From the NCBI RefSeq assembly GCF_050946405.1, contig NZ_JBMNUS010000013.1:71443-135442 (forward strand): DNA of 64,000 bases, written 5' to 3'. Made by a program: the position numbers and the translations under genes. How positions within the stretch are numbered: the first letter of the stretch is position 1; every line of letters starts with the position of its first letter. The notes under the pieces were generated by a model that made no database searches, was not told the DNA's origin, and saw only the letters and a list, made by a program, of their open reading frames with translations. Source of the stretch: Pseudochelatococcus sp. Its GTDB lineage: Bacteria > Pseudomonadota > Alphaproteobacteria > Rhizobiales > Beijerinckiaceae. Of the stretch, positions 3,823-54,397 are shown piece after piece.

Positions 3823-3845
3823 AGGCCCGAAGCAGGGTGACGATC

Positions 3846-15729: not shown

Positions 15730-15966
15730 GATGAAAGCTCCTCTGGCGGTTTTTCCCGTGGCGGGTGCAGGCAGCGTAATCACGGTTATGATTTGCCAAC
15801 AAGTCCTTTTCTGATGACTGATAACACGTTGAAATATATGGTGGTGCGCGTGGCCGTGTTTCGGTTTTCGAAACGGCTGCAACGCCGGAGGCTTTTCGGT
15901 CTGACGCGTTTTTCTCGCGCGGAGCGGCATCCGCTTCGCTTGGAAACGCTTTATCGCGGGGAGGGA

Positions 15967-21632: not shown

Positions 21633-21663
21633 GCAAAAATTGCATGATAACGACAAAAATTGC
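21633..21663. promoter_or_regulatory. Direct repeat (G/A)CAAAAATTGC x2, 20-bp register, 50-80 bp upstream of megasynthetase start; AT-rich promoter region
   Basis: gcaaaaattgc at 21633-21643 and acaaaaattgc at 21653-21663 read in sequence; also TTTCACG x2 at ~21557/21568. Confidence 0.4.
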
Positions 21664-21711
21664 GTCGCGGGGAGAGGCGGGCGCTTGCGTCGTCATCTCC
21701 CATATCGTTAC

Positions 21712-23470
21712 ATGTCGGCGACAATCAGGCAGACTTTCCCCTCCCGATCGGATCAGCCGTTCATGTGCTCGTTCAAAGCGCCGTCGACGCTCAATGACGC
21801 CCTTGTCTCAAATGCGGGCGTGTCGGAGATCGGAGTTGCGGGCATTGGCGATCCGCCGCGCGGCGTGACCTTTTTCGGGGCCGACCGCCAGCTCACGCAT
21901 GTTTCCTACGCGCAGTTGCTCGACCGCTCCCGCCGCTGGCTGTGGCATCTGACGCAGGGCGGCGTCCGCCCCGGCGACGAGGTGCTGATCGTCACCGACG
22001 ACCTGCCGCTGTTCACGACGGTTTTCTGGGCCTGCGTGCTCGGCGGCATCGTCGCCGTGCCGGTCTCGACACCCACGAACGACGAGGGGGCGCTCAAGAT
22101 CGCGCGTATCCGGGGCGTTCTGCGGCGTCCGTGGATCGTCTCGGACGCGCGGGTGCATGCTCGCCTCGCCGCCGTCGCGGACGGGATCGCGCCGGAACGC
22201 ACGGCGTGCGCCGGCGAGCGCTCGATCGCGGTTCCCGGCGTCGTGCTCGATTGTCCGGCGGCGCCGGTGGCATCCGTGGCGGCGTCGGATGTGGCCTTCA
22301 TCCAGTTTTCCTCCGGCTCGACGGGCGCGCCGAAGGGCGTGATCGTCACCCACGCCAACCTGATCGCCAATTGCACGGCCATTCTCAAGGGCATCCTTGC
22401 GAACGCGCCCGGTGAAAACGGAGAAGCCGCGCGCCTGTTGAGCTGGATGCCGCTGACGCATGACTTCGGCCTCATCTGGTTCCACATCCTGCCGACCGTC
22501 TTCGGGCTGGATCACGGCCTCGTCCCGACGAAGCTCTTCGTGCGCAACCCGCTGGTGTGGATGCAGGCGGCCTCCGACATGAAGGCGAGCGTGCTCGGCG
22601 GGCCGAATTTCTCTTACCGGCATTTCCTCAAGCATTTCGATGCCGGCAAGCCGCGCGACTGGGATCTGTCGCCGGTCCGCGTCATCGCCAACGGCGCGGA
22701 GCCCATCTCCTGCGAACTGGCGGAGGAGTTCACCGCGGCGCTCGCGCCTTGCGGACTCGATCGCGGGGCGATGACCGCCGCCTACGGGCTGGCGGAAGGC
22801 ACGCTGGTGGTGAGCATGGCGCAGCCCGGCGCGGGGCTCGGCCGGATTTCCGTCGACCGCAACCGCGTCAATCCCGGCGAGCGCGTCGCGCCGCTGGATG
22901 AAGGCGATGACGCCGCGGTGAGTTTCGCGGATGTCGGGACGCCGCTGGATTGCGTGTCGCTGCGCGTTGTCGACGAGGCGGGGCTGCCCTGCGCCGACGA
23001 TGTGGTCGGCCGCTTGCAGATAACCGGCGCGAGCGTGACCGCCGGTTACTACAACGACGACGAGGCGACGCGCGCCGCCTTCACGGCGGACGGCTGGCTG
23101 GATACGGGCGATCTGGGCTTCATGCGCGCCGGGCGTCTCGTCGTCACGGGCCGCCGCAAGGACGTGATCATCGTCAACGGGGTGAACTACTATCCGCAGG
23201 ACATCGAGCGCGTGGCCGGCGAGGCGGAAGGGCTCGACCTCAACATGGTGGTCGCCGGCGCGATCCCGCGCGGGGTTCTCGGCGAGGATCGGGAAGGCGT
23301 CGTGCTGTTCGTGCTGTTCCGGCGCGAGGTGGAGCGGTTCCTCCCGCTCGCCCGCGAGGTGCGCGACCGCGTGCTGCGCGAGATCGGCATTCCCGTCGAT
23401 CGCGTCATTCCGGTGGCCCGCATCGCCAAGACGACGAGCGGCAAGGTGCAGCGCTTTCAGATGGTGGGGC
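21712..23470 (+). other. domain: fatty acyl-AMP ligase (FAAL/AL) starter
   Basis: AMP-binding core FSSGSTGAPKG, no upstream C domain, followed by ACP - MycA-like loading. Confidence 0.75.
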
Positions 23471-26400
23471 AGTTCGTCGCCGGTGCGTTCGATGAAGCGT
23501 TGCGCGCGCTCGATGCGGCGGATGCGGCCGAGGGCGCCGCGCTGCGCCGGGCGTGGGAGCGGGGCGACGAGGCCGCGCTGGTGGCGGAACTGGCGGCGTG
23601 GGGCGCGCGCATCGTGCCGGGCGGCGCGCTCGATCCGGGCCGGCCGCTCATGGAAAGCGGCTTCACGTCGCTGCGTCTCGTCGAACTGATGCGGCGCATC
23701 GGCCGCGCGCTCTCGCTGGACCTGCCGGTCACGCTCGCCTTCGAACAGCCGACGCTGGCGGCGCTCGCCGGCGCGCTCGTGCGCCTGCGCAGCGCCGATG
23801 CCGCGCCTGCGGAAGCGCCGCGCGCCGCGCCGGCGGCGGAGCGGGCGCGGATCGGCATCACCGGGCTGGCCTGCCGCCTGCCCGGCGGCGTTGAAAGCCC
23901 GGCCGGCTTCTGGCGGCTGCTTGAAGGCGGCGTCGATGCGACGGCGCCGGTCGCGCCCGGCCGCTGGCCGGCTTACGACGCCAGCCTGACCGTGACCGAT
24001 CGCGGCGGCTATCTGGCGGATATCGAAACCTTTCCGGCCCGGTTCTTCAATCTGACGCAGGTGGAGGCCGATGCCGTCGACCCGCAGCAACGGCTGCTGC
24101 TCATGACGGCCTGGGAGGCGCTGGAGCACGCGGGGATCGATCCGCTGTCGCTGAAGGGATCGCGCACCGGCGTGTTCGTGGGCATCAGCCCCGGCGATTA
24201 CGTGCAGGCGCAGGCGCGCGCCGGCCGGCTCGACGCCATCGGCCCGCATGCGTTTCTCGGCAGCGCAACGAGCGTCGCGGCCGGGCGCATCGCCTATGTG
24301 CTGGGGCTGGAGGGGCCGGCGCTGGCCGTCGACACGGCCTGTTCGTCGGCGCTCGCGGCGCTCCATCTCGCGGTGCGGGCGCTGCGGGCCGGCGAGTGCG
24401 ACCGCGCGCTGGTGGCGGGCGTCAATCTCATCCTCGGCCCCGAGATGCATGTGGGCCTCAGCCGCATGAACGCGCTGTCGCCCGCGGGGCGCTGCCGGGC
24501 TTTCGACGCGGCGGCGGACGGCTACGCGCGCGGCGAGGGCTGCGTCACGCTCGTGCTGGAGCGTCTCGATGCCGGAGATGCGCCACGTCCGCTCGCCCTT
24601 GTGCGCGGCACGGGCCTCAACCACGACGGCGCGTCGAACGGGCTCACCGCGCCCAACGGCGCGGCCCAGCGGGCGGTGATCGCCGCCGCGCTCGCGGATG
24701 CGGGCCTTGCGCCGGCCGATGTCGACTATGTGGAGGCGCACGGCACCGGCACGCCGCTCGGCGACCCGATCGAGGCGATGGCGCTGGCGGAAGCCTACGG
24801 CGCGGGGCGCGACGGCGAGCTGCGCGTCGGCTCCGTCAAGACCAACATCGGCCATCTGGAGGCCGCCGCCGGTCTTGCCGGCCTCGCCAAGGCGGTGCTC
24901 GCGCTCCGGCATGGCAGCCTGCCGGCCTCGCTGCATTTCGAGACGCCCAATCCGCTGATTCCGTGGCCGCAACTGCCCCTGCGCGTCGTCGACCGCGCCG
25001 AGCCGTGGCCGGCCGTGGCCGGGCGGGTGCGCCGGGCCGGCGTCAGCGCCTTCGGCATGAGCGGCACCAACGCGCATGTCATCATCGAGGAAGCACCGCC
25101 GGCGCCCGTGCCCGCGCATGACGACGCGCGGGCGACGGTGCTGCCGGTTTCCGCGCGCACGCCGGAGGAATGCGCCGCGCTGGCGGAGCGTTACGCGGCC
25201 GCGCTGGAGCGCGCCGACAGCGGCCGCATGCACGATCTGGCCCGCACGGCAGCGTGCGGCCGGGCGGCGATGGCGCATCGGCTGGCGGTGACGGGACGCG
25301 ATCCGGCGGAACTCGCCGCGAAGTTGCGGGCGAAGGCCGCCGCCGGGGCTGGCAGGCCCGATGCCGGCGCGCCCGTCGTCTTCCTGCTGCCGGGGCAGGG
25401 GGCGCATGCGCCGGAGGCGGTGCGCGCGCTCCATGCGCGCGAGCGCGTGTTCCGTGAGACGCTGGATGCGGCCGATGCGGCGCTTGAGGGCTTTCTGGAC
25501 CGGCGCCTGACCGATCTCCTGCTGTCGCCGGAGGGCGCGCCGCTTCTGGGGCGCACGGCCTACAACCAGCCGGCGACGGTGGCGGTGTCGCTGGCGGTGG
25601 CGGCGATGCTGCGGGCGTTCGGCGTGCGGCCCGATGCGGTCATCGGGCATTCGGCCGGCGAGATCGCGGCGGCGGCGCTCGCGGGCATGCTGGATCTGCC
25701 CACGGCGGTGCGGTTCGCGGCGGCGCGCGGCGCGGCCATGCAGGCGCTCGACGGCGGCGCGATGATCGCGGTGCGCGCGCCGGCGCAGACGATCAACGAC
25801 GTGATTGCGCAGACCCTGGCGCGGGTCGAGGGCGTGGGCGTCGCCGCCTGGAACGCGCCGGCGCGCGTCACGCTGTCGGGGCCGCGCGAGGCGGTGGCGC
25901 GGGCGGCCGCCGTCCTGCGCGAGGCAGGCGCGCGCGTGGCAGAGCTGCGCGTGGCGGAGCTGGACGTGTCGCACGCCTTCCACTCGCCGATGATGGACGG
26001 CGCGCTCGCCCCCATCCGCGAACTTGCCGCCGGCCTCACGGTGAGCGCGGCGACGGGGCGCATGATTTCCACGCTGACGGGCGGGCCGGTCGATGCCGGG
26101 GCGCTGCGCGATCCCGCCTATTGGGCGCGGCAGGCGCGCGAGCCGGTGGCCTTTGCCGCCGCCGTGTCGGCGGTGGGGGGCGATGCGCCCGACCGCGTCG
26201 ATCCGGTTCTGATCGATCTTGGCGCGCGGCCGGTGCTGGCGCCGCTCGCGGCGGAGGTGCTGCCGCAGGCGCGCTGCCTCGCCGTCTGCGACGCGCGCCG
26301 GCCCGACGAGCGGCTCATCGAGACGCTGGGCGAACTGTTCGAAGCCGGCCGGCCCGTGGCATGGCCCGCCGTCTTCGCGGAGCGTCCCGGCCGGCTCGCG

Positions 26401-29400
26401 GAAGCGCCGACCTATCCCTTCATCGGCAAGACGCGCGTGCTGCCGACGGCCGGTGCGGATTCCCGCGCCGGCGAAGCGCAGGCGGCCGGCCGGGCGGAAG
26501 CGCTGCCCGTGCCCGCGGCGACAGCCCCGGTGGCGGGGCGCGAGGCGGTTGCGCACGTCATCCGCAGCGTCCTGCGCGGCGTCGCCGGGCTCCAGCCGGA
26601 GGAGGTGGCGGGCGATGCGACATGGTTCAGCCTCGGCCTCGATTCGCTGCTGATCGTCCAGCTCCAGCAGGCGCTGGCGCGCGAATACGCCATCGACCTG
26701 CCGCTCGCCGCCGTCATGGAGAACGGCGATACGCTCGACCGGCTCGTGACCCTCGTGGTGGAGCGCCTGCCCCGCGTGGCGCAAGCGCCGGTGGAAGCGC
26801 CCGTTATGGAGACGCCCGCTGCGGCGGCGGCTGGCGGCGAAGGCGTCGAGGGGCTTCTCGCCCGGCAGATCGACGCCATGAGCGCGCTGTTCAGCCAGCA
26901 ACTCGCGTTGCTTCAGGGCGGAGTCCGGCCGGCGGTTTCGACGCCCGCCGCTATCCCGGACGTCGCAGTCGCCGGGCCGGCCCCGGCCGCGCCGAAACGC
27001 GAGATCAAGGGCCTGTTCAAGGCGCTGCCGGCGCGCAGGGAGCAGGCGAATCCGGCGCAGGAGGCGCATGTGCGCCGCCTTGCCGCCGCCTTCAACGCCC
27101 GCACGCGCTCCTCGAAGGAGCATACGGCTGCCTATCGTGGCGTCTACGCCAACCCGCGCGCCGTGATCGGCTTCCGCCCCGAGTGGAAGGAGCTGAACTA
27201 CCCCCTGCATGTGGAGCGGGCGGAAGGGCCGTATGTGTGGGATATCGACGGCCATCGTTATGTCGACATCACCATGGGTTTCGGCGTGACGCTGTTTGGC
27301 CACAACCCGCCCTTCGTGCGCGAGGCGCTGGCGGCGGAGCTTGCCGCCGGCTTTCCCGTCGGCCCGCAGAGCGCGCGGGCCGGGCGGGTCGCCGCCATGA
27401 TCAGCGCCATGACCGGCGTGGAGCGGGTGGCGCTGTTCACCACCGGCAGCGAGGCCGTCATGGTCGCGCTGCGGCTGGCGCGCGCGAAAACCGGCCGGCG
27501 CAAGATCGTGACCTTCGTCAATTCCTATCACGGCACGTTCGACGGCGTGCTGGCGGTGGGCTGGACCGAGGGCGCGCGCGTGACGACCATGCCCGTGAGC
27601 GAAGGTACGCCGCAAGGCATGGTCGATGACGTGATCGTGCTGCGCTACGGCGATCCGGCCGCGCTCGACGTCATCCGCCAGCACCTCGCCGAACTGGCGG
27701 CCGTGGTGGTGGAGCCGGTGCAGAGCCGCGACCCGGCGGTGCAGCCGCGCGCCTTCCTGCACGAGTTGCGGGCGCTGACGGCGCAGGCGGGCGTCGCGCT
27801 CGTTTTCGACGAGACGATCACCGGCTTTCGCGTGCATCCCGGCGGGGCGCAACGCCATTTCGGCATCGAGGCCGATATCGTCACCTACGGCAAGGTCGTC
27901 GGCGGCGGCATGCCGATCGGCGTCGTCTCGGGAAGGCGGCATTATCTCGACGGCGTCGACGGCGGCGACTGGCAGTATGGCGACGATTCCGTTCCTTCCG
28001 CCCGCACCGCCTTCGTGGCCGGCACCTTCAACAACCATCCCCTGACGGCGGCGGCGGCGGAGGCGGTGCTGAAGCACCTCGCCGCCGAGGGGCCGCAGTT
28101 GCAGGAGCGGCTGAACGCCCGCACCGCCGCGATGTGCGCCGAGCTAGACGCCCTGTTCGCGGCCGAGGACGTGCCCGTCCGCATGGCGCATTTCAGCTCG
28201 CTGTTCCGTTTCGAGTTCGCCGGCGACACCGAGATCCTCAACTATCACCTGCTCAACAACGGCGTTTTCGTCTGGGAGGGGCGCAACTGCTTCCTCTCCA
28301 CCGCCCACAGCGACGACGACATCCGCTTCATCGTCGAGGCGGTGCGCAAGGGCATCGCGGAGATGCGGGCCGGCGGATGGCTGCCGCCGTCGCCGGGCCG
28401 CGCCGCGCCCGAGGCGCGCCAAGAGCATGGTGCGCGCGAGGAGGCAGGACCGGCGCCGCTCGGCCGGGGGCAGGGCGAGATGCTGGCGCTGCTCGAAGCG
28501 CGGCCGGAGGCGACGCTCGCCTATAACGAGATGGTGGCCTTCGCGCTCGACGGCCCGCTCGACCGGGAGGCGCTGCGCCGCGCCTTCGCCGGGCTCGTGC
28601 GGCGCCACGAGGCGCTGCGTTGCGCGGGCATCGACGAGACCGGCTGGCGCGCGGCGGCTCTTCCGCCCGCCGACCTGCCGGCGGAAGAGCCGGCCGAAGA
28701 AGGAGCGGTGATGGCGCGCCTGGCGCGCGAACTCGAAACGCCGTTCGATCTGCAACGCGGGCCGCTCATGCGCGCGCTGCTGCTGCGCCTTGCGCCGCAG
28801 CGGCATGTGGTGGCTTTCACCGTGCATCACATCGTCGCCGACGGCTGGTCGCTCGGCCTGATGGCGGGCGAACTCGCGGCGCTTTACGCCGCCGAACGGG
28901 CCGGCGTGGCGGCGGCGCTGCCGCCGGCCGAATCGTTCCGCGCCTTCGTCGCCTGGACGCAGGGCTTGGACGGCGGCGCGTCTCCGATGGCGGAAGACAG
29001 CGCGCCCGTCGTCCTGCCGGCCGCCGATTTCCCGCATCGCGCGTCCTTCCGCGGCGGGCGCGTCCACCGCCGCCTGTCGGCGGGCGGGCGGGAAGGCGAA
29101 GGCGTGTTCGATGCCGCGAGGCGTTTCGCGCGCGCGCATGACACAAGCCCGTTCACGGTGCTGCTCGCGGCCTATGCGCTGCTGCTCGGCCGCCTGTCGG
29201 ACCAGCGCCGGCTGACCATCGGCATTCCCGTCGCCGGCCATACGGAGGCCGGCTTGCCGGTGATGGTGGGGCAGGCGTCGGCGGTGCTGCCGCTGACGCT
29301 GGAACTCGATCCGCAAGCGGATTTCGCAGCCCTCGTTGCCCATGTGAAGGCGGCGCTGGCCGATGCCCGGCACGGCGTCGGCGGGCTCTTCACCGCGCAG

Positions 29401-32400
29401 GGCGGGCGGGGCACCGATGTCAACGTGCTGTTCAACCTCGACCGCGGTTTCCGGCTCGATTTCGAGGGATTGGGGCTGACGTGGATATCGCCTCCGGTCA
29501 GCCGGCCGAAAAAGGACCTGTTCCTCAACGTGCTGGAGCTGAACGGCGAAGCGCTGCTCGATCTCGATCATGACGGTGCGCTGGGCGATTCCGCCACGGC
29601 GGAGCGCTGGCTCGATTCCTTCCTGTCGCTGCTCGCCGAGGGGCTGCGCGCGCCCGCGACGCCGATCGCGCGCCTGCCGCTCTCCGCCGCTGACCGGGCG
29701 GCACAGGCGGATGATGTGCGCACGCGCGACGGCTTCGGCGCGCCGGCCGCCATCGGCACGGTCGCGCCGGTGGAGGCGCGCGACGATGCGGGGCTTTGGG
29801 CCGACACGGGGCGGCTCGGCCGGCTGCGGGCGGATGGCGGCGTCGAGGTGCTGGGCGAGGCGCGGCGTTTCCTGCGCACGCGCGGCGGCTGGCTCGATCT
29901 CGACCTTCCGGCGCGGGTGCTGCGGGAACACCCGGCGCTGGCCGATGCCGCCGTGATCGCGGAATCCGGCGGGCTGACCGCCTTCGTGACGCCGCGCGCG
30001 GGCGGGCAGGTCGACGGGCAGGCGCTCGCCGCCTATGCGGCGCTGCGGCTGCCGCCCGAGGCGCGGCCGGCCGCCTTCGTCGTGACGGATATCGCGCGCG
30101 ATGCCGGGGGGCGCGCCCTCCTGCGCGCCGATCACGGCGAGCGTCTCGCCACGCGCGCCCTCACGCCCGCCCGCACCGATGCGGAGAAGGCGGTCGCGGC
30201 GATCTGGGCCGAGGTTCTCGGGCTGGAGGAAGTCGGCGTCCTCGACAGCTTCTTCGACCTCGGCGGTCACAGCCTCAAGGCGCTCGCCATCCTCGCGCGC
30301 GTCGAGGCGCGGCTCGGGCGCACCGTGCGGCTGCGCGCCTTCTTCGAGGAGCCGACCGTGGCGGGGCTCGCGTCACGTCTGGGCGCGGGCGAGGCGCATG
30401 CCGTCATTCCGACCGCGGCACCGGCGGCGCATTATCCGGCGTCGAACGCGCAGGCGCGGCTGTGGATGCTCGACCGGATCGATCCCGGCCTTGCCGCCTA
30501 CAACATCGGCTTTTCGCTGCGCAGCGCCGCGCCTCTCGACGAAACCGCGCTGCGGATCGCGCTGGCGGGCCTCGCCGGGCGGCACGAGAGCCTGCGCACG
30601 GCGCTCATCGACCATGACGGCCTGCCGCGCCAGACGATCCTGCCCGCGTTGCAGCCCGAGCTGCGCATCGAGGATGCGGTGGGCGCGGACGCGGCGGCGC
30701 TCGTCGCGCGGGAGCGGGCCATCGCCGCCGAGCCCTTCGCGCTGGAGCGCGCGCCGCTCTGGCGGGCGGTGCTGCTGCGCGGGGGGCAAGGGGATATCGA
30801 GCCGGCGGGCGACCGTCTGGTGTTCGTGCTGCATCATGCCATTGCCGATGTGTGGTCGGTCGGCGTTTTCGTGCGGGATTTTCTGGCGTTGTACGCAGAG
30901 GCCGGCGGCGCACGGCTGCCGGCGCTGGCGCTGCAATACCGGGATTATGCGGTCTGGCAGGTGGGGCGGCCGGAGCCGCATCTTGACTGGTGGGTCGCGG
31001 CGCTGGCGGATGCGCCCCGGCTGGAGCTGCGGCCCGACCGGCCGCGCCCGCCGCTCAAGACCTTCAACGGCGATCATGTCGTTCTCGATGTGCCGGGGCC
31101 GGTCGCGGCGGCCCTCAAGGCGCTTGCCGCCGTCAACGGCGCGAGCGCGTTCACGGCGGTGGTCGCGGCGCTCTGCAACCTGCTGTGGGAAGAGACGGAG
31201 GCGCGCGACATCGTCATCGGCACGGTGACGGCGGGGCGCGACCATCCGGCGCTCGCGGACCAGATCGGTTTCTTCGTCAACACGCTGGCGCTGCGCGCGC
31301 GGGTGGCGCCGGAGGCGGGCTTCCTGCCGCTGCTCGCGGGCGTGCGCGATGCGCTGCTGGCGGCGGCCGAACATGGCGATACGCCGCTCGACCGGGTGGT
31401 CGAGGCGTTGAACCGCCCGCGCGATCCGGCGCGCAATCCGCTGTTCGAGGTCGTCGTGGTCATGGACGACCGCGAGGAGATCGACCGGCTGCTCGCCGGC
31501 ACCGGCTTCGCGCTCGCGGAAATCGACACGGCGACGGCGCAGTTCGACCTCACGCTTTATGTCACCGACGGCGCGGACGGCATCCGCATCAAGGCGACCT
31601 ACAATACCGACCTGTTCGACCGCGCCCGCATCGAGGGACTGATGGCGCGGCTGGCGGGGCTGATGGCGGGGGCGGCCGCCGATCCGGCGCGCGCGCTCGC
31701 CGCGCGGGCGCAGGGGGGCAGGGCGGCGCATGGTTCCGCGCCTGGCCAACGGCAAGGCTACGCGCCGTCGCGCCATCAGGAGCGGCTGTGGTTCGTGGAT
31801 CACTTCGAGCGCGGCGTGCTCTATCCGTCCGGGCCGACCTATTACAACATGCCGTTCGTGGTGCGCGTCGACGGCGCGGTCGATGCCGCGCGGCTCGCGG
31901 CTGCCGCTGCGGCGCTTGCGGCGCGGCATGAGGCGCTGCGCGCGGCGCTCGTCACGCAGGGCGACCGTCCGGCCGTCGAGGTCGCGGCGGCTGCGGCGCT
32001 GCCGGTTGCGGAGATTGCGGCGCCGGCGGGGGCGGGGCTTGCCGCAGTCGAGGAGGCGAGCCGCGCGGCCTTCGACCTCGATACGCCGCCGCTCGCCCGT
32101 CTGACGCTCTGCCGCGAGGCGGGGAGCGGCGCCTGCTGGCTCGCCCTGACGGTTCATCACGCCATGGGCGACCGGGCGGCGCTGCGCACGCTGGCGGAGG
32201 AACTCGCCCGCCTTTATGCCGACCCGGCCGCCGCCCTGCCGGAAATCCGCCCCTTCGGCGCGGCCCATGCGCTGCCGGAGCGGGCGGTGGAGGCCGGCCA
32301 TGAGGCGGATGCCGCCTATTGGCGCGAGGCGCTGGCGGGCGTTTCCGCGCTCGTGCTGCCGACGGACCGGCCCCGCCCCGCGATCCACACCTTCACGGCG

Positions 32401-35400
32401 GGCCGCGTCGCGGGGCGGCTCGACGCGGCGCTGCGCGGGCGGATCGACGCGCTGGCGGCGGCGCTCGGCGTGAGCCGGGCGGATGTGCTGCGCGCCGGTT
32501 ATCAGGCGTTGCTGCATCGTCTTTCCGGCCAGCGGGATGTCGTCATCGGCGAGACCGTGCAGCCGCCGCAACCGGCGCGGACGGTCGGGCCGCTCGCCAA
32601 TCTCCTGCCCTTGCGGCTCGACGTGGAGGCCGGCGAGGGCTTTGCCGCGCTGGTGCGGCGCGCGGCGGCGCGGCGGCAGGCGGATGCGGCGCATGGCGCG
32701 ATCCCCTTCGATCTGCTGGTGCTGGCGGTGAAGCCGCGCAACGACATGAGCCGCACGGCGCTGTTCGATGTGCTGTTCCACCATGAGAATGCGACCGCCG
32801 CCCTGCCGGCCGGGTGGGCGGCGGTCGACACCGGGCTCGGCTGGGGCAAGTACGATTTCGTGCTGTCCGTGGTGCCGGATGGCGACGGGCTGGCGGTGAG
32901 CCTCGTCTACAACCGCGACCTTTTCGACGCCGCCAGCGCGCAGGCCGTCCACGCGCGCTACGGGCAACTGCTGGCGGCGGCGCTGGCGCAGCCGGAGCGG
33001 CCGCTGTCTGCGCTCGACATCATGCTGCCGGGAGAGCGCGCGGCGCTGCTGGCCGAAGCCGGCGAGGTGGCCGATTACCCGCGCGGCCTCACGCTCACGG
33101 CGCGTTTCGAGGAGATGGCGGCGCGCCACGGGGCGCGCATCGCCGTCACCGACACCGACGGGGAACTGACCTATGCGGCGCTCGACGCGCGCGCCAACCG
33201 GCTGGCGCATCGCCTGCGCGCGCTCGGCGCGGGACCGGAGGCGCTGGTCGGGCTGTTCGTGGGGCGCACCTGGCGCATTCCCGCTGGCATTCTCGGCATT
33301 CTCAAGGCGGGCGCGGGCTATGTGCCGATCGATCCCGCCTATCCCGACGAGCGCATCCGCTTCATGGTGGCGGATTCGGGCATGCGGCTCATCGTCACCG
33401 ACGCTGAAAACGCGGCGGCGGCGCACCGCCTCGGCATTGCTACGGTGGTGATCGATGATCTGGCGGAGGACCTGCCCGTCGCGGCGACACCCGAAAATGC
33501 CGCGCCCGAAAATGCTGCGCCCGAGAACGTCGCTTACGTCATCTACACGTCCGGTTCCACCGGCATGCCCAAGGGCTGCGTCATCGAGCACCGCAACGTC
33601 ATCCAGCTCTTCTTCCACGAGGGGCGGCCGTTCGCCTTCGGGCCGGATGACGTGTGGAGCCTGTTCCACTCCGCCTGTTTCGACTTCTCGACGTGGGAGA
33701 TCTACGGCGCGCTGCTCTTCGGCGGCCGGCTCGTCGTCGTGCCGCAGGCGCTGACGCGTGAGCCCGCCGCCTTTCTGGAACTCGTCGCCCGCGAGGGGGT
33801 GACGGTGCTGAGCCAGACGCCGACCGCCTTTTACGGGCTGATCGAGGCGGCCCGGCAGCGCCCCGGCCTGCATCTTGCGCTGCGCGAGATCGTCTTCGGC
33901 GGGGAAGCGCTGGCGCCGGCCCGGCTTGCCCCGTGGCGGGCGCTCCACCCGGCCGCGCGCCTCGTCAACATGTACGGCATCACCGAAACGACGGTGCATG
34001 TGACGTTCAGGGAGATCGGCGACGCCGAGATCGCGGAGGGCCGCAGCGTCATCGGCCGGCCGCTGCCGTCCTGCGGCGTGTTGCTCGTCGGCCCCGATCT
34101 CGCGCCCTGCCCGCGGGGCGTGGCCGGCGAGATCGTGGTCGCGGGCCACGGCGTCGCCCGCCGCTACCTGAACCGGCCGGAACTCACGGCGGAGCGCTTC
34201 ATCGCGCACCCGGACCTGCCCGGCGGGCGCGTCTACCGCTCCGGCGATCTCGGCCGGATCGGGCTTGACGGCGAGCTGGTCTATCTCGGCCGCATGGACG
34301 ATCAGGTCAAGATACGCGGCTTTCGCATCGAGCCTGGCGAGATCGAGCGCCGGCTGGTCGCGCATCCCGCGATCCGCGATGCGGCCGTTCTCGCCGAGGG
34401 CGGCGAGGGCGGCGAGGGCGCGGCGGGCGAGAGCCTCTGCGCCTGTGTCGTCACCGATGCGCCGCCCGGCCGCGAGGAGCTGTTTCACTATCTGGCGGAC
34501 AAGCTGCCCGACTACATGATTCCGTCGCGCTTCCTGCGCGTGGCGCGCATCCCGCTCACGGCCAACGGCAAGGCGGACCGCCGGCGGCTCGCGGCGGAGG
34601 GCGGCGAGGCGATCGGCGCGGGGGGCGGCGCGGAGGAAGGCCGGGCGCCGCGAACGCCACTGCAAAAGGCGGTGGCGCGCATCTGGTGCGAGGTGCTGGG
34701 CGTGCCGCAGGTGGGGCTCGACGACAATTTCTTCGCGCTCGGCGGCCATAGCCTCAAGGCCAATCAGGTCGTGGTGCGCATCCGCCAGCGCCTCGGCGGC
34801 AGTCTCGACCTGCGCGATTTCTTCAGCGCGCAGACGCTCGCCGTGCTGGTCGAGCTGATCGAGCGGCGCGGGCTCGGCGCGGCGGGCACTATTGCCCCGG
34901 CGCCGTCCGCGCCCGACTATCCGCTCTCCTTCGCGCAGCGCCGGCTGTGGCTGGTGCAGAACATGAACCCCGATAGGGTGGCCTACAACATGGCCGGCGC
35001 CTTCGTCGTGGAGGGGGCCGTCGACCGGGAGCGGCTGGCGGCGGCGTTCCGGGCGCTGGCGGTGCGCCACGAGATCCTGCGCACGCGCTTCGTCTCGCGC
35101 CACGGCGAGCCCCGGCAGGTGGTGGATGCCGGCATCGACGGGCATATGGCGGTGTTCGAGGCCGGCCATGACGCGGGAAGCGGCGGGATGGCGGCCGTGG
35201 AGCGGCTGCTCGCGGCGGAGCTTCGCCATGTCTTCGATCTCGCGCGCGGGCCGCTGGCGCGGGTGCATCTGGCGGAGCTGCCCGTCAAAGGGCACGGCGG
35301 CTGCGCCATCATCATCAACCTGCATCATATCGTCTCCGACGGCTGGTCGGTGACGGTCATGCTGCGCGAGCTGGAGGCGCTCTACCGCGCGGCGCTGGCT

Positions 35401-36354
35401 GCGCCGCAGGCGACGCCGGCGGAGATCGCGGCGCGGGCCGGGCTGCCGGCGCTGCCGGTCCAGTACCGGGACTATGCCTTGTGGCAGCACGGCGAGGCGG
35501 CGGGCGAAGGGTTGCGGGCGGCCCGCTCCTACTGGCTCGCCCGCTTCGAGGACGAGGCGCCGGCGCTGGAACTGCCGGCCGACCGGCCGCGTCCGCATAC
35601 GCCCGGCGGGGCCGGCGCCATCGTGCATGCCGTGCTCGACGAGGAACTGACGCAGGCGCTGAGGGACCTCGCGCGCCGCCACGACATGAGCCTGTTCGGC
35701 GTGCTCGCCGCGCTCGTGCGGGTGCAGCTCGCGCTCCTGTCGGGGCAGGACGACATCACCATCGGCACGCCGGTCGCCGGCCGCAACCTGCTGGAGCTGG
35801 AGGGGCAGATCGGCTTCTACCTCAACCTGCTGGCGCTGCGCGGCCGCATCGGGCCGCAGGATGCCTTCGGCGATGTCCTGAAGGCGGAGCGCACCCTGGT
35901 GCTCGACGCCTTCGCCCATGAAGCCTGTCCGTTCGACCTCCTGGTCGGGGAGCTGGGCGTCACGCCGGAGCGCGGCCGCCATCCGCTTTTCGACGTGCTG
36001 ATCATTCTCCAGAACAACGAGCCCGTGCGCCTCGACCTTGCCGGGAGCCGGGGCGCGCCGCTGCGCGATACCAGCATCAGCGCCAAATACGATCTCAACT
36101 ATATGTTCGAGGACCGGCCGGCGCTCGAACTGCTGCTGGAATACGCGGCGGATCTTTTCGATGCGGACACGGCCCGCCGCATCGCCGGGGATTTCGTCGC
36201 CCTCGCGCGGGCGGTCGCCGCCGATCCCTCCATCGGCGTCGACAGCCTGCGGGATCGCATGCAGCGGGCCGTGCCGCCGCCGGATGCGCCAGCGGCGGAT
36301 GTGCTGGCGCATGACGCGGCGCATGGTGCGGCTTTTGCCGATGACGGGTGGTGA
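21712..36354 (+). CDS. Hybrid PKS/NRPS megasynthetase: FAAL-ACP-KS-AT-ACP-AMT-C-(A remnant)-PCP-C-C-A-PCP-C (about 4880 aa)
   Basis: Uninterrupted 14.7 kb ORF; motifs read directly: FSSGSTGAPKG (acyl-AMP ligase), GFTSL and LGLDSL carrier serines, DTACSS/HGTGT (KS), GHSAGE + HAFH (malonyl AT), GSA-aminotransferase-like PLP domain (YGKVVGGG), four condensation domains with HHxxxD(G) motifs, complete A domain (YTSGSTGMPKG...NGKADRR), FFxLGGHSL PCPs. ATG 21712 (MSATIRQ...) preferred over ORF-track start 21640. Confidence 0.9.
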   Translation: MSATIRQTFPSRSDQPFMCSFKAPSTLNDALVSNAGVSEIGVAGIGDPPRGVTFFGADRQLTHVSYAQLLDRSRRWLWHLTQGGVRPGDEVLIVTDDLPLFTTVFWACVLGGIVAVPVSTPTNDEGALKIARIRGVLRRPWIVSDARVHARLAAVADGIAPERTACAGERSIAVPGVVLDCPAAPVASVAASDVAFIQFSSGSTGAPKGVIVTHANLIANCTAILKGILANAPGENGEAARLLSWMPLTHDFGLIWFHILPTVFGLDHGLVPTKLFVRNPLVWMQAASDMKASVLGGPNFSYRHFLKHFDAGKPRDWDLSPVRVIANGAEPISCELAEEFTAALAPCGLDRGAMTAAYGLAEGTLVVSMAQPGAGLGRISVDRNRVNPGERVAPLDEGDDAAVSFADVGTPLDCVSLRVVDEAGLPCADDVVGRLQITGASVTAGYYNDDEATRAAFTADGWLDTGDLGFMRAGRLVVTGRRKDVIIVNGVNYYPQDIERVAGEAEGLDLNMVVAGAIPRGVLGEDREGVVLFVLFRREVERFLPLAREVRDRVLREIGIPVDRVIPVARIAKTTSGKVQRFQMVGQFVAGAFDEALRALDAADAAEGAALRRAWERGDEAALVAELAAWGARIVPGGALDPGRPLMESGFTSLRLVELMRRIGRALSLDLPVTLAFEQPTLAALAGALVRLRSADAAPAEAPRAAPAAERARIGITGLACRLPGGVESPAGFWRLLEGGVDATAPVAPGRWPAYDASLTVTDRGGYLADIETFPARFFNLTQVEADAVDPQQRLLLMTAWEALEHAGIDPLSLKGSRTGVFVGISPGDYVQAQARAGRLDAIGPHAFLGSATSVAAGRIAYVLGLEGPALAVDTACSSALAALHLAVRALRAGECDRALVAGVNLILGPEMHVGLSRMNALSPAGRCRAFDAAADGYARGEGCVTLVLERLDAGDAPRPLALVRGTGLNHDGASNGLTAPNGAAQRAVIAAALADAGLAPADVDYVEAHGTGTPLGDPIEAMALAEAYGAGRDGELRVGSVKTNIGHLEAAAGLAGLAKAVLALRHGSLPASLHFETPNPLIPWPQLPLRVVDRAEPWPAVAGRVRRAGVSAFGMSGTNAHVIIEEAPPAPVPAHDDARATVLPVSARTPEECAALAERYAAALERADSGRMHDLARTAACGRAAMAHRLAVTGRDPAELAAKLRAKAAAGAGRPDAGAPVVFLLPGQGAHAPEAVRALHARERVFRETLDAADAALEGFLDRRLTDLLLSPEGAPLLGRTAYNQPATVAVSLAVAAMLRAFGVRPDAVIGHSAGEIAAAALAGMLDLPTAVRFAAARGAAMQALDGGAMIAVRAPAQTINDVIAQTLARVEGVGVAAWNAPARVTLSGPREAVARAAAVLREAGARVAELRVAELDVSHAFHSPMMDGALAPIRELAAGLTVSAATGRMISTLTGGPVDAGALRDPAYWARQAREPVAFAAAVSAVGGDAPDRVDPVLIDLGARPVLAPLAAEVLPQARCLAVCDARRPDERLIETLGELFEAGRPVAWPAVFAERPGRLAEAPTYPFIGKTRVLPTAGADSRAGEAQAAGRAEALPVPAATAPVAGREAVAHVIRSVLRGVAGLQPEEVAGDATWFSLGLDSLLIVQLQQALAREYAIDLPLAAVMENGDTLDRLVTLVVERLPRVAQAPVEAPVMETPAAAAAGGEGVEGLLARQIDAMSALFSQQLALLQGGVRPAVSTPAAIPDVAVAGPAPAAPKREIKGLFKALPARREQANPAQEAHVRRLAAAFNARTRSSKEHTAAYRGVYANPRAVIGFRPEWKELNYPLHVERAEGPYVWDIDGHRYVDITMGFGVTLFGHNPPFVREALAAELAAGFPVGPQSARAGRVAAMISAMTGVERVALFTTGSEAVMVALRLARAKTGRRKIVTFVNSYHGTFDGVLAVGWTEGARVTTMPVSEGTPQGMVDDVIVLRYGDPAALDVIRQHLAELAAVVVEPVQSRDPAVQPRAFLHELRALTAQAGVALVFDETITGFRVHPGGAQRHFGIEADIVTYGKVVGGGMPIGVVSGRRHYLDGVDGGDWQYGDDSVPSARTAFVAGTFNNHPLTAAAAEAVLKHLAAEGPQLQERLNARTAAMCAELDALFAAEDVPVRMAHFSSLFRFEFAGDTEILNYHLLNNGVFVWEGRNCFLSTAHSDDDIRFIVEAVRKGIAEMRAGGWLPPSPGRAAPEARQEHGAREEAGPAPLGRGQGEMLALLEARPEATLAYNEMVAFALDGPLDREALRRAFAGLVRRHEALRCAGIDETGWRAAALPPADLPAEEPAEEGAVMARLARELETPFDLQRGPLMRALLLRLAPQRHVVAFTVHHIVADGWSLGLMAGELAALYAAERAGVAAALPPAESFRAFVAWTQGLDGGASPMAEDSAPVVLPAADFPHRASFRGGRVHRRLSAGGREGEGVFDAARRFARAHDTSPFTVLLAAYALLLGRLSDQRRLTIGIPVAGHTEAGLPVMVGQASAVLPLTLELDPQADFAALVAHVKAALADARHGVGGLFTAQGGRGTDVNVLFNLDRGFRLDFEGLGLTWISPPVSRPKKDLFLNVLELNGEALLDLDHDGALGDSATAERWLDSFLSLLAEGLRAPATPIARLPLSAADRAAQADDVRTRDGFGAPAAIGTVAPVEARDDAGLWADTGRLGRLRADGGVEVLGEARRFLRTRGGWLDLDLPARVLREHPALADAAVIAESGGLTAFVTPRAGGQVDGQALAAYAALRLPPEARPAAFVVTDIARDAGGRALLRADHGERLATRALTPARTDAEKAVAAIWAEVLGLEEVGVLDSFFDLGGHSLKALAILARVEARLGRTVRLRAFFEEPTVAGLASRLGAGEAHAVIPTAAPAAHYPASNAQARLWMLDRIDPGLAAYNIGFSLRSAAPLDETALRIALAGLAGRHESLRTALIDHDGLPRQTILPALQPELRIEDAVGADAAALVARERAIAAEPFALERAPLWRAVLLRGGQGDIEPAGDRLVFVLHHAIADVWSVGVFVRDFLALYAEAGGARLPALALQYRDYAVWQVGRPEPHLDWWVAALADAPRLELRPDRPRPPLKTFNGDHVVLDVPGPVAAALKALAAVNGASAFTAVVAALCNLLWEETEARDIVIGTVTAGRDHPALADQIGFFVNTLALRARVAPEAGFLPLLAGVRDALLAAAEHGDTPLDRVVEALNRPRDPARNPLFEVVVVMDDREEIDRLLAGTGFALAEIDTATAQFDLTLYVTDGADGIRIKATYNTDLFDRARIEGLMARLAGLMAGAAADPARALAARAQGGRAAHGSAPGQRQGYAPSRHQERLWFVDHFERGVLYPSGPTYYNMPFVVRVDGAVDAARLAAAAAALAARHEALRAALVTQGDRPAVEVAAAAALPVAEIAAPAGAGLAAVEEASRAAFDLDTPPLARLTLCREAGSGACWLALTVHHAMGDRAALRTLAEELARLYADPAAALPEIRPFGAAHALPERAVEAGHEADAAYWREALAGVSALVLPTDRPRPAIHTFTAGRVAGRLDAALRGRIDALAAALGVSRADVLRAGYQALLHRLSGQRDVVIGETVQPPQPARTVGPLANLLPLRLDVEAGEGFAALVRRAAARRQADAAHGAIPFDLLVLAVKPRNDMSRTALFDVLFHHENATAALPAGWAAVDTGLGWGKYDFVLSVVPDGDGLAVSLVYNRDLFDAASAQAVHARYGQLLAAALAQPERPLSALDIMLPGERAALLAEAGEVADYPRGLTLTARFEEMAARHGARIAVTDTDGELTYAALDARANRLAHRLRALGAGPEALVGLFVGRTWRIPAGILGILKAGAGYVPIDPAYPDERIRFMVADSGMRLIVTDAENAAAAHRLGIATVVIDDLAEDLPVAATPENAAPENAAPENVAYVIYTSGSTGMPKGCVIEHRNVIQLFFHEGRPFAFGPDDVWSLFHSACFDFSTWEIYGALLFGGRLVVVPQALTREPAAFLELVAREGVTVLSQTPTAFYGLIEAARQRPGLHLALREIVFGGEALAPARLAPWRALHPAARLVNMYGITETTVHVTFREIGDAEIAEGRSVIGRPLPSCGVLLVGPDLAPCPRGVAGEIVVAGHGVARRYLNRPELTAERFIAHPDLPGGRVYRSGDLGRIGLDGELVYLGRMDDQVKIRGFRIEPGEIERRLVAHPAIRDAAVLAEGGEGGEGAAGESLCACVVTDAPPGREELFHYLADKLPDYMIPSRFLRVARIPLTANGKADRRRLAAEGGEAIGAGGGAEEGRAPRTPLQKAVARIWCEVLGVPQVGLDDNFFALGGHSLKANQVVVRIRQRLGGSLDLRDFFSAQTLAVLVELIERRGLGAAGTIAPAPSAPDYPLSFAQRRLWLVQNMNPDRVAYNMAGAFVVEGAVDRERLAAAFRALAVRHEILRTRFVSRHGEPRQVVDAGIDGHMAVFEAGHDAGSGGMAAVERLLAAELRHVFDLARGPLARVHLAELPVKGHGGCAIIINLHHIVSDGWSVTVMLRELEALYRAALAAPQATPAEIAARAGLPALPVQYRDYALWQHGEAAGEGLRAARSYWLARFEDEAPALELPADRPRPHTPGGAGAIVHAVLDEELTQALRDLARRHDMSLFGVLAALVRVQLALLSGQDDITIGTPVAGRNLLELEGQIGFYLNLLALRGRIGPQDAFGDVLKAERTLVLDAFAHEACPFDLLVGELGVTPERGRHPLFDVLIILQNNEPVRLDLAGSRGAPLRDTSISAKYDLNYMFEDRPALELLLEYAADLFDADTARRIAGDFVALARAVAADPSIGVDSLRDRMQRAVPPPDAPAADVLAHDAAHGAAFADDGW
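23840..26380 (+). other. domains: ketosynthase (Cys at ~24340) + malonyl-specific acyltransferase (GHSAGE ~25650, HAFH ~25975); no KR/DH/ER
   Basis: DTACSSAL, EAHGTGTPLGDPIE, NIGHLEAAAG; GHSAGEIAAAALAG; VSHAFHSPMM. Confidence 0.85.
27000..28370 (+). other. domain: PLP-dependent aminotransferase (AMT; glutamate-1-semialdehyde aminomutase-like) embedded in PKS
   Basis: HemL-like motifs ...GFGVTLFGHNPPF..., DETITGFR, YGKVVGGGMP; positioned after ACP2 exactly as in mycosubtilin MycA. Confidence 0.8.
28460..30390 (+). other. module 1: C - degenerate A (only ~170 aa A8-A10-like C-terminal subdomain, 29641..30150) - PCP
   Basis: C domain HHIVADGWS ~28825; after C-A linker (LSAADRAAQ) the sequence jumps to an Asub-like stretch (TGRLGRLRADGGVEVLGEA...LPARVLREHPALADAAVI) with no A1-A7 core; PCP FFDLGGHSLKAL ~30255. 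Confidence 0.7.
30420..33010 (+). other. tandem condensation didomain C2 (HHAIADVWS ~30830) - C3 (HHAMGDR ~32155)
   Basis: Two full-length (~430 aa each) C-domain-like regions back to back, each starting with SxAQxRLW-type C1 motif and containing His-motif; no carrier or A domain between. Confidence 0.7.
33090..36351 (+). other. module 2 A-PCP (YTSGSTGMPKG ~33545; FDFSTWE pocket) and terminal C4 (HHIVSDGWS ~35325) that must pair in trans with next NRPS
   Basis: Complete A1-A10 motif set; PCP FFALGGHSLKANQ ~34730; ORF ends in C domain. Confidence 0.8.
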
Positions 36355-36357
36355 GCC

Positions 36358-45683: not shown

Positions 45684-45723
45684 GGAGCGGAACGATGCGC
45701 GCCGGGCGGCTCGGGAGGGAGCC

Positions 45724-47364: not shown

Positions 47365-47410
47365 ACAGGCGGTTGCGTTTTGACGAGAGGCATGCAGGGG
47401 AATGACGATC

Positions 47411-52512: not shown

Positions 52513-52625
52513 GGCTGCGAGCGCGTCGGCATCGTGCCGGCGCGCCTTGCCGGAATGGGCGCCTTCCGATCGTAACGGGTGGGAGACACGCTGACGCCGG
52601 GGCGGGTTGACGAGAAAGAACGCGA

Positions 52626-52817: not shown

Positions 52818-52914
52818 CGATATCCCTGCCCGCATGGCCGGGCGCGGCCGGGTTGCGCCGCGCATTCGATGAACGTTCATGGCCGGCCTTGCCGCCGGTG
52901 CGTCACGGAAGACG

Positions 52915-54318: not shown

Positions 54319-54397
54319 TCCGGCCGGGCACATGTCCGCGGCGGGCCGGCAGCGGGCAGGACGTCACCAGCAACTTCCAAACCGTAATGGCGAAACC

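What the first reader, a model, noticed from the sequence alone, without database searches (positions are those of the whole stretch)
21712..28370. Loading line makes a beta-amino acyl unit without reductive domains
FAAL activates a fatty acid onto ACP1. KS plus malonyl-AT extend it once to a beta-ketoacyl-ACP2. No KR/DH/ER is present, and the HemL-like AMT domain follows directly, so the beta-keto group is transaminated to a beta-amine. This is exactly the MycA chemistry, and the downstream C domain then acylates the next residue through this beta-amino acid.

Separately, the AT shows the malonyl HAFH motif, and the KS has the full Cys-His-His triad, so it is an elongating rather than decarboxylating KS.
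Basis: partly seen in the sequence, partly recalled or inferred. Interest (0 to 1): 0.55.

Follow-up and report, generated by a model that had tools for sequence, protein, structure and literature searches.

The report
MycA-like beta-amino fatty-acyl loading module
The start of a giant lipopeptide-synthesis gene carries every domain needed to turn a fatty acid into a beta-amino fatty acid, as in the Bacillus antifungal iturin/mycosubtilin system; this is a well-known type of machinery, here in an undescribed gene cluster of a soil alphaproteobacterium.

Summary
One ORF (21640/21712-36354, + strand) begins with FAAL-ACP1-KS-AT-ACP2-AMT-C. Every catalytic motif is intact: the FAAL-type ~24-residue insertion, KS Cys-His-His, AT GHSxG and HAFH, both carrier serines, and the AMT PLP lysine and aspartate. 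AT to ACP2 is 106 aa and ACP2 to AMT is 101 aa, with no Pfam hit, so no KR, DH or ER can be present.

The AMT's best solved relative is the MycA aminotransferase domain (E 2.8e-156, 52% identity). The predicted chemistry, a fatty acid extended by two carbons and transaminated to a beta-aminoacyl thioester, is well supported. It is a known kind: about 96 of the 120 listed database homologues contain the AMT.

Two corrections apply.
- MycA/ItuA have no embedded AT and use FenF/ItuD in trans. Here the AT is in cis.
- The module after the AMT has no adenylation core (C1, a decayed A-subdomain remnant, then T1), and two more C domains precede the first real A domain. Which C domain makes the first amide bond is therefore unclear.

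The same A-less C-T unit occurs in a Bacillus ItuA-like protein and in 19 of 76 AMT homologues that continue past the AMT.

The cluster is conserved in Methylobacterium, Xanthobacter and Rhizobiales genomes at 60-65% identity, and no description of it was found. It also holds an AsnB-type amidotransferase and an S12 D-peptidase-autotransporter. Verdict: new member of a known kind, low to moderate interest.

The parts
21712..36354 (+). Hybrid PKS-NRPS megasynthase gene. Domain order: FAAL-ACP1-KS-AT-ACP2-AMT-C1-(Asub remnant)-T1-C2-C3-A2-T2-C4. The ORF is open from the TTG at 21640; the likely start is the ATG at 21712.
   Evidence: collinear orthologues in L001-L004
21856..23517 (+). FAAL (fatty acyl-AMP ligase) domain, carrying a ~24-residue FAAL-type insertion after YGLAEG
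   Evidence: PDB hits 3PBK, 3KXW, FadD32/23/28 and McyG. NCBIfam PRK09192 'fatty acyl-AMP ligase', 331.9 bits. 50 residues from YGLAE to VGTPL versus 26-27 in three of the cluster's four amino-acid A domains. Leu at the ItuAL-208 pocket position, as in MycA.
23617..23778 (+). ACP1, phosphopantetheine Ser677 at nt 23668
   Evidence: Pfam PP-binding; serine conserved in homologues
23848..24942 (+). Ketosynthase with Cys901, His1034 and His1072 (elongating type)
   Evidence: Pfam, E 7.5e-80 and 7.7e-45; motif alignment
25378..26241 (+). cis-acyltransferase with GHSAGE (Ser1338) and the HAFH malonyl signature
   Evidence: Pfam Acyl_transf_1, E 1.1e-38; absent from the Bacillus ItuA-like P0069
26557..26754 (+). 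ACP2, Ser1669 at nt 26644
   Evidence: Pfam PP-binding
27052..28395 (+). PLP-dependent aminotransferase (AMT) domain of MycA type, with Asp2057 and Lys2085
   Evidence: PDB 6KFM/6KFR/6KFU (MycA), E 2.8e-156, 524 bits, versus 199 bits for the best GSA aminomutase; 52% identity; Lys conserved
28480..29682 (+). C1, the condensation domain directly after the AMT, HHIVADG intact
   Evidence: Pfam; closest to post-AMT C domains of other synthetases, including the ItuA-like one
29737..30144 (+). Remnant of an adenylation domain. Only the C-terminal subdomain is left and the core (A1 to about A5) is missing. The A10 lysine is lost in the window and in all four orthologues.
   Evidence: only AMP-binding_C, E 1.5e-4, and no PF00501 hit; alignment of orthologues
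30190..30378 (+). T1, a PCP with no cognate A domain, Ser2878 at nt 30271
   Evidence: Pfam; 65-75% identical in the orthologues, as conserved as working domains
30427..33051 (+). Tandem condensation domains: C2 (LCL-like, HHAIADV) and C3 (atypical, HHAMGDR)
33106..36246 (+). A2 (Thr-like code DFWSVGMVHK), T2, C4
36358..38247 (+). AsnB-type glutamine-dependent amidotransferase (MCGI N-terminus). It is translationally coupled on both sides: it starts 4 nt after the megasynthase stop, and its stop overlaps the next ATG at 38244.
   Evidence: Pfam; TIGR01536, 434.7 bits against a cut-off of 267.1; conserved at 65-80% in L001-L004 and absent from the other 77 loci
38244..45683 (+). NRPS: A3-T3-C5-A4(MT)-T4-E
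47402..50836 (+). S12 (beta-lactamase fold) D-peptidase-like domain fused to an autotransporter beta-barrel
   Evidence: Pfam; best PDB hit is alkaline D-peptidase 4Y7P, 81.6 bits; conserved in the orthologous clusters
54332..58387 (+). Terminal NRPS: DCL-A5 (Asp-like code DLTKLGHICK)-T5-TE

Best explanation
The first ~2,250 residues of the megasynthase form an iturin/mycosubtilin-type loading line.
1. The FAAL domain adenylates a free carboxylic acid, most likely a long-chain fatty acid, and loads it on ACP1 without a CoA intermediate.
2. The embedded AT loads malonate on ACP2.
3. The KS performs one decarboxylative condensation, giving a beta-ketoacyl-S-ACP2 that is two carbons longer.
4. 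No reducing domain exists, so the MycA-type PLP aminotransferase domain converts the beta-ketone into a beta-amine while the chain stays on ACP2.
5. The beta-aminoacyl chain then enters the NRPS part through C1.

Shown here: the presence, order and catalytic integrity of all domains, the absence of reductive domains, and specific homology to MycA.

Inferred: the nature and length of the acid, the amine donor (Gln in MycA), and the hand-off.

The hand-off is not a plain C-A-T step. C1 is followed by an A-domain remnant and T1, then C2 and C3, before the first A domain (Thr-like). I think the most likely route is that the chain passes through, or past, the conserved C1-T1 unit without gaining a residue, as it must in the Bacillus ItuA-like protein, and that the first amide bond is to the A2-loaded residue. 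The remaining modules (A3, N-methylating A4 plus E, Asp-like A5, TE) would give a small, probably cyclic, lipopeptide. The co-transcribed AsnB-type enzyme probably amidates a carboxylate of it.
For: - Domain order and boundaries.
- Catalytic residues, with conservation in orthologues and in ItuA-like, Cystobacter and Sphaerotilus homologues.
- FAAL character. The pocket-floor residue is Leu, as in MycA (read against PMC11751314).
- AMT: the MycA AMT is by far the best solved relative (524 versus 199 bits), at 52% identity.
- No reductive domain.
- The FAAL-KS-AMT motif is an established route to beta-amino acyl starters (PMC4989320, PMC4219810, PMC11751314, PMC3870968).
- Hand-off: the A core is absent. 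There are five PCPs but four A domains and no free A domain in 64 kb.
- An A-less C-T unit directly after the AMT also occurs in the Bacillus ItuA-like P0069 and in 19 of 76 AMT homologues that continue past the AMT, usually with HHxxxDG intact.
- C1 and T1 are as conserved among five orthologous clusters as the working domains.
Against: - No product is known and nothing was tested biochemically.
- The FAAL domain scores as well against McyG, a phenylpropanoid-activating loading domain (223.9 bits), as against E. coli FAAL (222.8 bits). A non-fatty acid starter is therefore not excluded.
- The NCBIfam FAAL hit is below that model's curated whole-protein cut-off (331.9 versus 600).
- HAFH is a statistical signature, not proof of malonyl specificity.
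- The relay or skip reading of C1-T1 rests on analogy. I know iturins as heptapeptides with seven A domains from my own knowledge and PMC3039948, not from a test here. No C domain is known to me that moves a chain to an unloaded carrier.
Confidence: 0.85

Rival explanations
1. The hand-off works. T1 is aminoacylated in trans, by one of the cluster's four A domains or by an enzyme encoded elsewhere. C1 couples the beta-amino acid to that residue, so the peptide has five residues rather than four.
For: - C1 has an intact HHIVADG motif and T1 an intact GGHS serine, both conserved in five orthologues.
- The Asub remnant shows the module was once a complete C-A-T.
- Relatives at about 40% identity (Tistlia, L005) still have roughly 1.2 kb, the size of an A domain, between C1 and the Asub-like segment.
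- Trans-loading of A-less modules is established NRPS biology (own knowledge).
Against: - No stand-alone A domain lies in the 64-kb window or in the flanks of L001-L004.
- The same A-less C-T unit sits in the Bacillus ItuA-like protein, whose heptapeptide products are fully accounted for by seven A domains (PMC3039948; own knowledge).
- This reading leaves the second of the two tandem C domains (C2, C3) without a role.
Confidence: 0.3
2. The N-terminal adenylating domain activates a non-fatty carboxylic acid (aryl, phenylpropanoid or short-chain, as McyG does). The starter unit would then be a beta-amino aryl- or short-alkanoate rather than a beta-amino fatty acid.
For: McyG (4R0M) is among the top PDB hits, scoring the same as the bona fide FAALs.
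Against: - The domain is 41-47% identical to the acyl-ligase domains of ItuA-like, Cystobacter and Sphaerotilus FAAL-KS-AMT proteins.
- It keeps the Leu/Arg pattern of MycA at the chain-length positions 208 and 287 (PMC11751314).
- Its best NCBIfam models are all fatty-acid ligases.
Confidence: 0.1
3. The AMT domain is inactive or does something other than beta-transamination, so a beta-ketoacyl chain is passed on.
For: None specific. Some embedded Aminotran_3 domains have lost the Schiff-base lysine (PMC3870968).
Against: Lys2085 and Asp2057 are present and conserved. The domain aligns end to end with the MycA AMT at 52% identity, and at 77-81% with its orthologues, making it the best-conserved domain of the protein.
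Confidence: 0.03

Closest known systems
MycA / ItuA / BmyA (Bacillus mycosubtilin, iturin and bacillomycin synthetase subunit A)
   Same: - Acyl ligase (FAAL)-ACP-KS-ACP-AMT-C order, with no reductive domains.
- AMT 52% identical to the crystallised MycA AMT, with the same PLP lysine motif.
- Leu at the chain-length position 208, as in MycA.
- An A-less C-T unit directly after the AMT, seen in the ItuA-like P0069.

Sources; PMC11751314.
   Different: - The AT is embedded here. Bacillus uses the separate malonyl-CoA transacylase FenF/ItuD/BmyD.
- An Asub remnant lies between C1 and T1.
- Two C domains, not one, precede the first A domain.
- There are four A domains (Thr-like, unknown, aromatic with N-methylation, Asp-like) instead of the seven of the iturin heptapeptide.
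- The host is a Gram-negative, roughly 70% G+C alphaproteobacterium.
- The cluster adds an AsnB-type gene and an S12 peptidase-autotransporter.
Uncharacterised cis-AT FAAL-ACP-KS-AT-ACP-AMT(-C-A-T) proteins, e.g. Sphaerotilus P0002, Cystobacter fuscus P0019, Melittangium P0018; this layout was listed for Pedobacter heparinus in PMC3870968
   Same: Identical loading-line architecture including the cis-AT. About 70 of the 120 listed database homologues have it.
   Different: Most continue with a complete C-A-T module, or end after the AMT. Identity is 42-52% overall.
Puwainaphycin (PuwC/D/B/E) and ralsolamycin (RmyA) loading systems
   Same: A FAAL start, a PKS extension and an embedded class-III aminotransferase give a beta-amino fatty acid starter for an NRPS (PMC4219810, PMC4989320).
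   Different: Those systems pair the AMT with a monooxygenase domain. In puwainaphycins this gives a 3-amino-2-hydroxy acyl unit. Puw also splits FAAL and ACP into separate proteins and adds a reducing PKS module. No oxygenase domain is present here.

Membership tests
MycA/ItuA-type beta-amino-acyl loading line | N-terminal FAAL-type acyl ligase with the FAAL-specific insertion, followed by its own ACP | tested here: met
   FAAL relatives in the PDB and NCBIfam. A ~24-residue insertion relative to three of the cluster's NRPS A domains, of the same length as in the ItuA-like P0069. ACP1 Ser677 present. No direct comparison with a fatty acyl-CoA ligase was made.
MycA/ItuA-type beta-amino-acyl loading line | One elongating KS (Cys-His-His) and a second ACP, with no KR, DH or ER | tested here: met
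   linkers of 106 and 101 aa only
MycA/ItuA-type beta-amino-acyl loading line | Malonyl supplied by a separate transacylase (FenF/ItuD), with no AT inside the protein | tested here: not met
   An intact AT (GHSAGE, HAFH) is embedded. Bacillus and Paenibacillus homologues lack it. The chemistry is the same but the architecture differs.
MycA/ItuA-type beta-amino-acyl loading line | Embedded class-III (GSA-aminomutase-like) aminotransferase of the MycA clade with the PLP lysine, placed after ACP2 | tested here: met
   6KFM, E 2.8e-156; 52% identity; Lys2085 and Asp2057
MycA/ItuA-type beta-amino-acyl loading line | Glutamine as amine donor; the beta-ketoacyl-S-ACP as substrate | not testable with these tools
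   Known for MycA only (Aron et al. 2005, as cited in PMC3870968)
MycA/ItuA-type beta-amino-acyl loading line | Condensation domain directly after the AMT with HHxxxDG | tested here: met
   HHIVADG at aa 2396
Iturin-family lipopeptide synthetase (the product family) | Seven amino-acid modules giving an Asn-Tyr-Asn-...-type heptapeptide closed on the beta-amine | tested here: not met
   Only four amino-acid A domains, with Thr-like, unknown, aromatic and Asp-like codes. It should not be filed as an iturin cluster.
3-amino-2-hydroxy-acyl loading lines (puwainaphycin/ralsolamycin type) | Monooxygenase domain next to the AMT | tested here: not met
   No oxygenase family among the Pfam hits of the megasynthase

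The most novel reading that the evidence does not exclude
The A-less C-T unit that follows the aminotransferase is not a dead module. It would be a functional relay or gate that takes the transaminated beta-aminoacyl chain from the PKS-type ACP to an NRPS-type PCP before the first peptide bond is made.

Support:
- Such units occur in 19 of 76 AMT-containing synthetases that continue past the AMT, usually with intact HHxxxDG and serine. Both cis-AT and trans-AT lineages are represented, including a Bacillus ItuA-like protein.
- In the window's clade the unit arose by deleting the A core and leaving an Asub stump. wC1 is closest to post-AMT C domains that do have an A domain. Together these suggest repeated, independent loss.

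If true, a C domain would be doing a carrier-to-carrier transfer without an aminoacyl acceptor.
Probability: 0.2. Interest if true: 0.55.

Novelty: new member of a known kind. Interest (0 to 1): 0.25.

Why it matters
The loading line itself teaches nothing new. FAAL-KS-AMT units are the textbook route to beta-amino fatty acid lipopeptides.

Its value is practical. It marks an uncharacterised lipopeptide cluster, found so far in five clusters (this window plus four related genomes at 60-65% identity; the three identifiable ones are a Methylobacterium, a Xanthobacter and a Rhizobiales MAG). The product is probably a small, N-methylated, D-residue-containing cyclic lipopeptide with a beta-amino fatty acid.

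The cluster also offers a tractable case of a recurring but little-discussed feature: a carrier domain with no adenylation partner directly after the aminotransferase. It is conserved together with an AsnB-type amidotransferase and a surface-exposed D-peptidase.

Tried and rejected
- **Megablast against PLSDB plasmids.** The flanks match Ancylobacter, Rhizobium and Agrobacterium replicons at 75-78%. The cluster matches nothing beyond short generic PKS/NRPS stretches. The source genome was not identified.
- **Best database relatives.** The best protein is only 60% identical, and the best genome locus is 65%.
- **AsnB-like gene as a beta-lactam synthetase acting on the beta-amino acid.** Rejected. 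It keeps the N-terminal Cys (MCGI), passes the TIGR01536 cut-off, and beta-lactam synthetase is only a 47-bit PDB hit.
- **S12 protein as a ClbP-like prodrug peptidase.** Weak. ClbP scores 27.8 bits against 81.6 for alkaline D-peptidase. Its role is left open.
- **C2 and the gene-3 terminal C as epimerases.** C2 has C-type motifs. The gene-3 terminal domain does look like an E domain, and the last gene starts with a DCL-type C.
- **PDB searches with C1 and C3.** They returned ordinary C domains and gave no subtype clue.
- **Literature.** Searches found no description of this cluster, nor of AsnB paired with an A-less module. The original mycosubtilin paper (PMC23941) is not held, so I could not check how its authors treated the extra C-T unit.
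- **Not run.** The representative-protein search, structure prediction and fold search, because no open question here depended on them.
Full report
**Anatomy**

The window is about 70% G+C. It holds one 4904-codon ORF on the + strand, 21640-36354, with an ATG at 21712. Pfam scans of the whole protein and of ten overlapping pieces give this order (aa numbered from 21640):

| Domain | Residues |
|---|---|
| AMP-binding | 85-471 |
| ACP1 | 660-713 |
| KS | 737-1101 |
| KS-AT linker | 1103-1233 |
| AT | 1247-1534 |
| ACP2 | 1640-1705 |
| Aminotran_3 | 1852-2211 |
| C1 | 2281-2681 |
| AMP-binding_C fragment only | 2760-2817 |
| T1 | 2851-2913 |
| C2 | from 2930 |
| C3 | 3372-3804 |
| A2 | 3823-4311 |
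| T2 | 4344-4407 |
| C4 | 4426-4869 |

**Checking each claim**

All catalytic residues were located and have DNA coordinates:
- ACP1 Ser677
- KS Cys901, His1034, His1072
- AT Ser1338 in GHSAGE, and HAFH at 1445
- ACP2 Ser1669
- AMT Asp2057 and Lys2085
- C1 HHIVADG

They are conserved in the orthologues and in Sphaerotilus, Cystobacter and Bacillus ItuA-like homologues.

The AT-to-ACP2 and ACP2-to-AMT linkers are 106 and 101 residues. Pfam finds only PP-binding and one sub-threshold ACP-family hit there, and nothing reductive. The first linker has no dinucleotide-binding motif and the second has a single chance GxGxxG match. A KR, DH or ER is excluded.

The first domain belongs to the FAAL group.
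- Its solved relatives include E. coli FAAL 3PBK, Legionella 3KXW, FadD32/23/28 and McyG.
- Its best NCBIfam model is 'fatty acyl-AMP ligase', though below that model's curated cut-off.
- The segment between YGLAE and VGTPL is 50 residues, against 26-27 in three of the four amino-acid A domains of the same cluster. This is an insertion of about 24 residues where the FAAL-specific insertion lies (concept from PMC11837247).
- At the position that sets pocket depth in the iturin acyl ligase (residue 208, PMC11751314) the window has Leu, as MycA does. This is a weak hint of a long-chain substrate.

The aminotransferase domain aligns end to end with the crystallised MycA AMT (6KFM/6KFR/6KFU): E 2.8e-156 and 524 bits, against 199 bits for the best glutamate-1-semialdehyde aminomutase. 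It is 52% identical, and YGKVVGGG aligns with the MycA YGKIIGGG.

**What it is**

This is a mycosubtilin/iturin-type loading line. A carboxylic acid is adenylated and put on ACP1, extended once with malonate to a beta-ketoacyl-ACP2, and transaminated to a beta-aminoacyl thioester. The mechanism is described for iturin synthetase in PMC11751314 and PMC3039948. The amine donor of MycA is glutamine (Aron et al. 2005, cited in PMC3870968). [quoted passage not shown] It is common: about 96 of the 120 best database homologues contain the AMT, and most of those also have the cis-AT.

**First correction: the AT**

The Bacillus and Paenibacillus ItuA/MycA-type homologues cover only about 52% of the query and lack PF00698. 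This fits their use of a separate malonyl-CoA transacylase (PMC11751314). In the window the AT is embedded, so the chemistry is MycA's but the architecture is the cis-AT variant.

**Second correction: the hand-off**

C1 is intact, but no adenylation core follows. Only a 135-150-residue stretch matches the C-terminal subdomain of an A domain, with recognisable but decayed A7/A8 motifs, and the A10 lysine is replaced. The window contains five PCPs, four amino-acid A domains and no free-standing A domain. After T1 come two condensation domains in tandem before the first A domain: C2 is LCL-like (HHAIADV) and C3 is atypical (HHAMGDR).

This is not a sequencing artefact.
- Four orthologous clusters are collinear through C1, remnant, T1, C2 and C3. 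They are L002 (Methylobacterium sp. EM32), L003 (a Rhizobiales MAG), L004 (Xanthobacter sp. VTT E-85242) and L001 (GCA_977010415).
- In them C1 is 54-64% and T1 65-75% identical, as well kept as the working domains.
- Relatives at about 40% identity (Tistlia) have space for a full A domain there.

The same kind of A-less C-T unit also sits directly after the AMT in the Bacillus ItuA-like protein P0069 (AMT 1492-1934, C 1967-2380, T 2419-2486, then C-A-T). It occurs in 19 of the 76 AMT homologues that continue past the AMT, nearly always with HHxxxDG intact.

As far as I know from the literature, iturins need no residue from that unit. My preferred reading is therefore that the chain passes through or past C1-T1 without gaining a residue.

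**Surroundings**

The megasynthase is followed 4 nt later by an AsnB-type amidotransferase. It has an N-terminal MCGI and scores 434.7 bits on TIGR01536 against a cut-off of 267.1. Its stop overlaps the ATG of the next NRPS gene.

Downstream genes:
- The next NRPS reads A3-T3-C5-A4(MT)-T4-E.
- An ABC transporter follows.
- Next is an S12 D-peptidase-like protein fused to an autotransporter barrel. Its best PDB hit is alkaline D-peptidase.
- DUF697 and SPFH proteins follow.
- The terminal NRPS reads DCL-A5-T5-TE.

Specificity codes were read by aligning to the PheA positions as I remember them, so treat them as approximate:
- A2: DFWSVGMVHK (Thr-like)
- A3: DVRHLALL-K (unassigned)
- A4: DAATIAAVC- (aromatic)
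- A5: DLTKLGHICK (Asp-like)

The AsnB gene and the S12 gene occur only with the four close orthologues, and in none of the other 77 fetched loci.

The flanking genes resemble Ancylobacter, Rhizobium and Agrobacterium replicons at 75-78%, so the source is a Hyphomicrobiales bacterium. No close match to the cluster exists in the plasmid collection. Literature searches found no description of it.

**Verdict**

It is a new member of a well-known kind, of low to moderate interest.

Noticed in passing
window 29737-30378: The first NRPS module has lost its adenylation core. Only a decayed C-terminal subdomain (A10 Lys replaced) remains before a well-conserved PCP. The state is conserved in four orthologous clusters. 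The window has five PCPs but four amino-acid A domains.
   Followed up: yes
proteins P0069, P0058, P0016, P0065 and others (homologues of window 21712-28368): An A-less C-T unit directly after the aminotransferase recurs in 19 of 76 AMT-containing synthetases that continue past the AMT. These include a Bacillus ItuA-like protein, whose product family needs no residue from it. In P0016 the unit is followed by a KS-AT module.
   Followed up: partly
window 30427-33051: Two condensation domains lie in tandem (C2 HHAIADV, C3 HHAMGDR with an unusual N-terminal motif LWFVDHFERGVLYPSGPTYY) before a Thr-like A domain. Their division of labour is unknown.
   Followed up: partly
window 36358-38247: An AsnB-type glutamine amidotransferase gene is wedged inside a split NRPS module, between the C4 end of gene 1 and the A3 start of gene 3. 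It is translationally coupled (ATGA overlap at 38244) and is the best-conserved accessory gene of the cluster (65-80%).
   Followed up: partly
window 47402-50836: A beta-lactamase-fold S12 domain, closest to alkaline D-peptidase and D-Ala-D-Ala carboxypeptidases, is fused to an autotransporter beta-barrel. The fusion is conserved in the orthologous clusters. It could be a maturation or self-protection peptidase for a peptide containing a D-residue.
   Followed up: partly
window 38244-45683 and 54332-58387: Gene 3 ends in an epimerisation-type domain (PLTPVQRWF, HHLVMDIVSW). The last NRPS gene starts with a DCL-type C (YPLTPFQEGVVFH). A4 carries an embedded methyltransferase. The penultimate residue would therefore be N-methylated and D-configured.
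   Followed up: partly
window 50858-54318 and 58441-60407: Genes for an unknown protein, DUF697 and SPFH/Band 7 lie between the NRPS genes. A gene with no Pfam hit and an alpha/beta hydrolase lie after the TE gene. DUF697 is also present in two of the orthologous clusters (L001, L002).
   Followed up: no
window 14389-16518: A second, free-standing class-III aminotransferase lies on the minus strand, 29% identical to the AMT domain. It overlaps a long plus-strand ORF whose only domains (HTH plus cupin) are at its C-terminal end, so that ORF is probably over-extended.
   Followed up: no
window 21808-28077 (-), 30373-38223 (-), 38097-45860 (-): Very long antisense ORFs (2089-2616 aa) lie opposite the NRPS genes. 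They are the usual stop-codon-poor artefact of high-G+C coding DNA, not genes.
   Followed up: no
window 60000-64000: G+C drops from about 70% to about 60% after 60 kb, which probably marks the downstream edge of the cluster.
   Followed up: no
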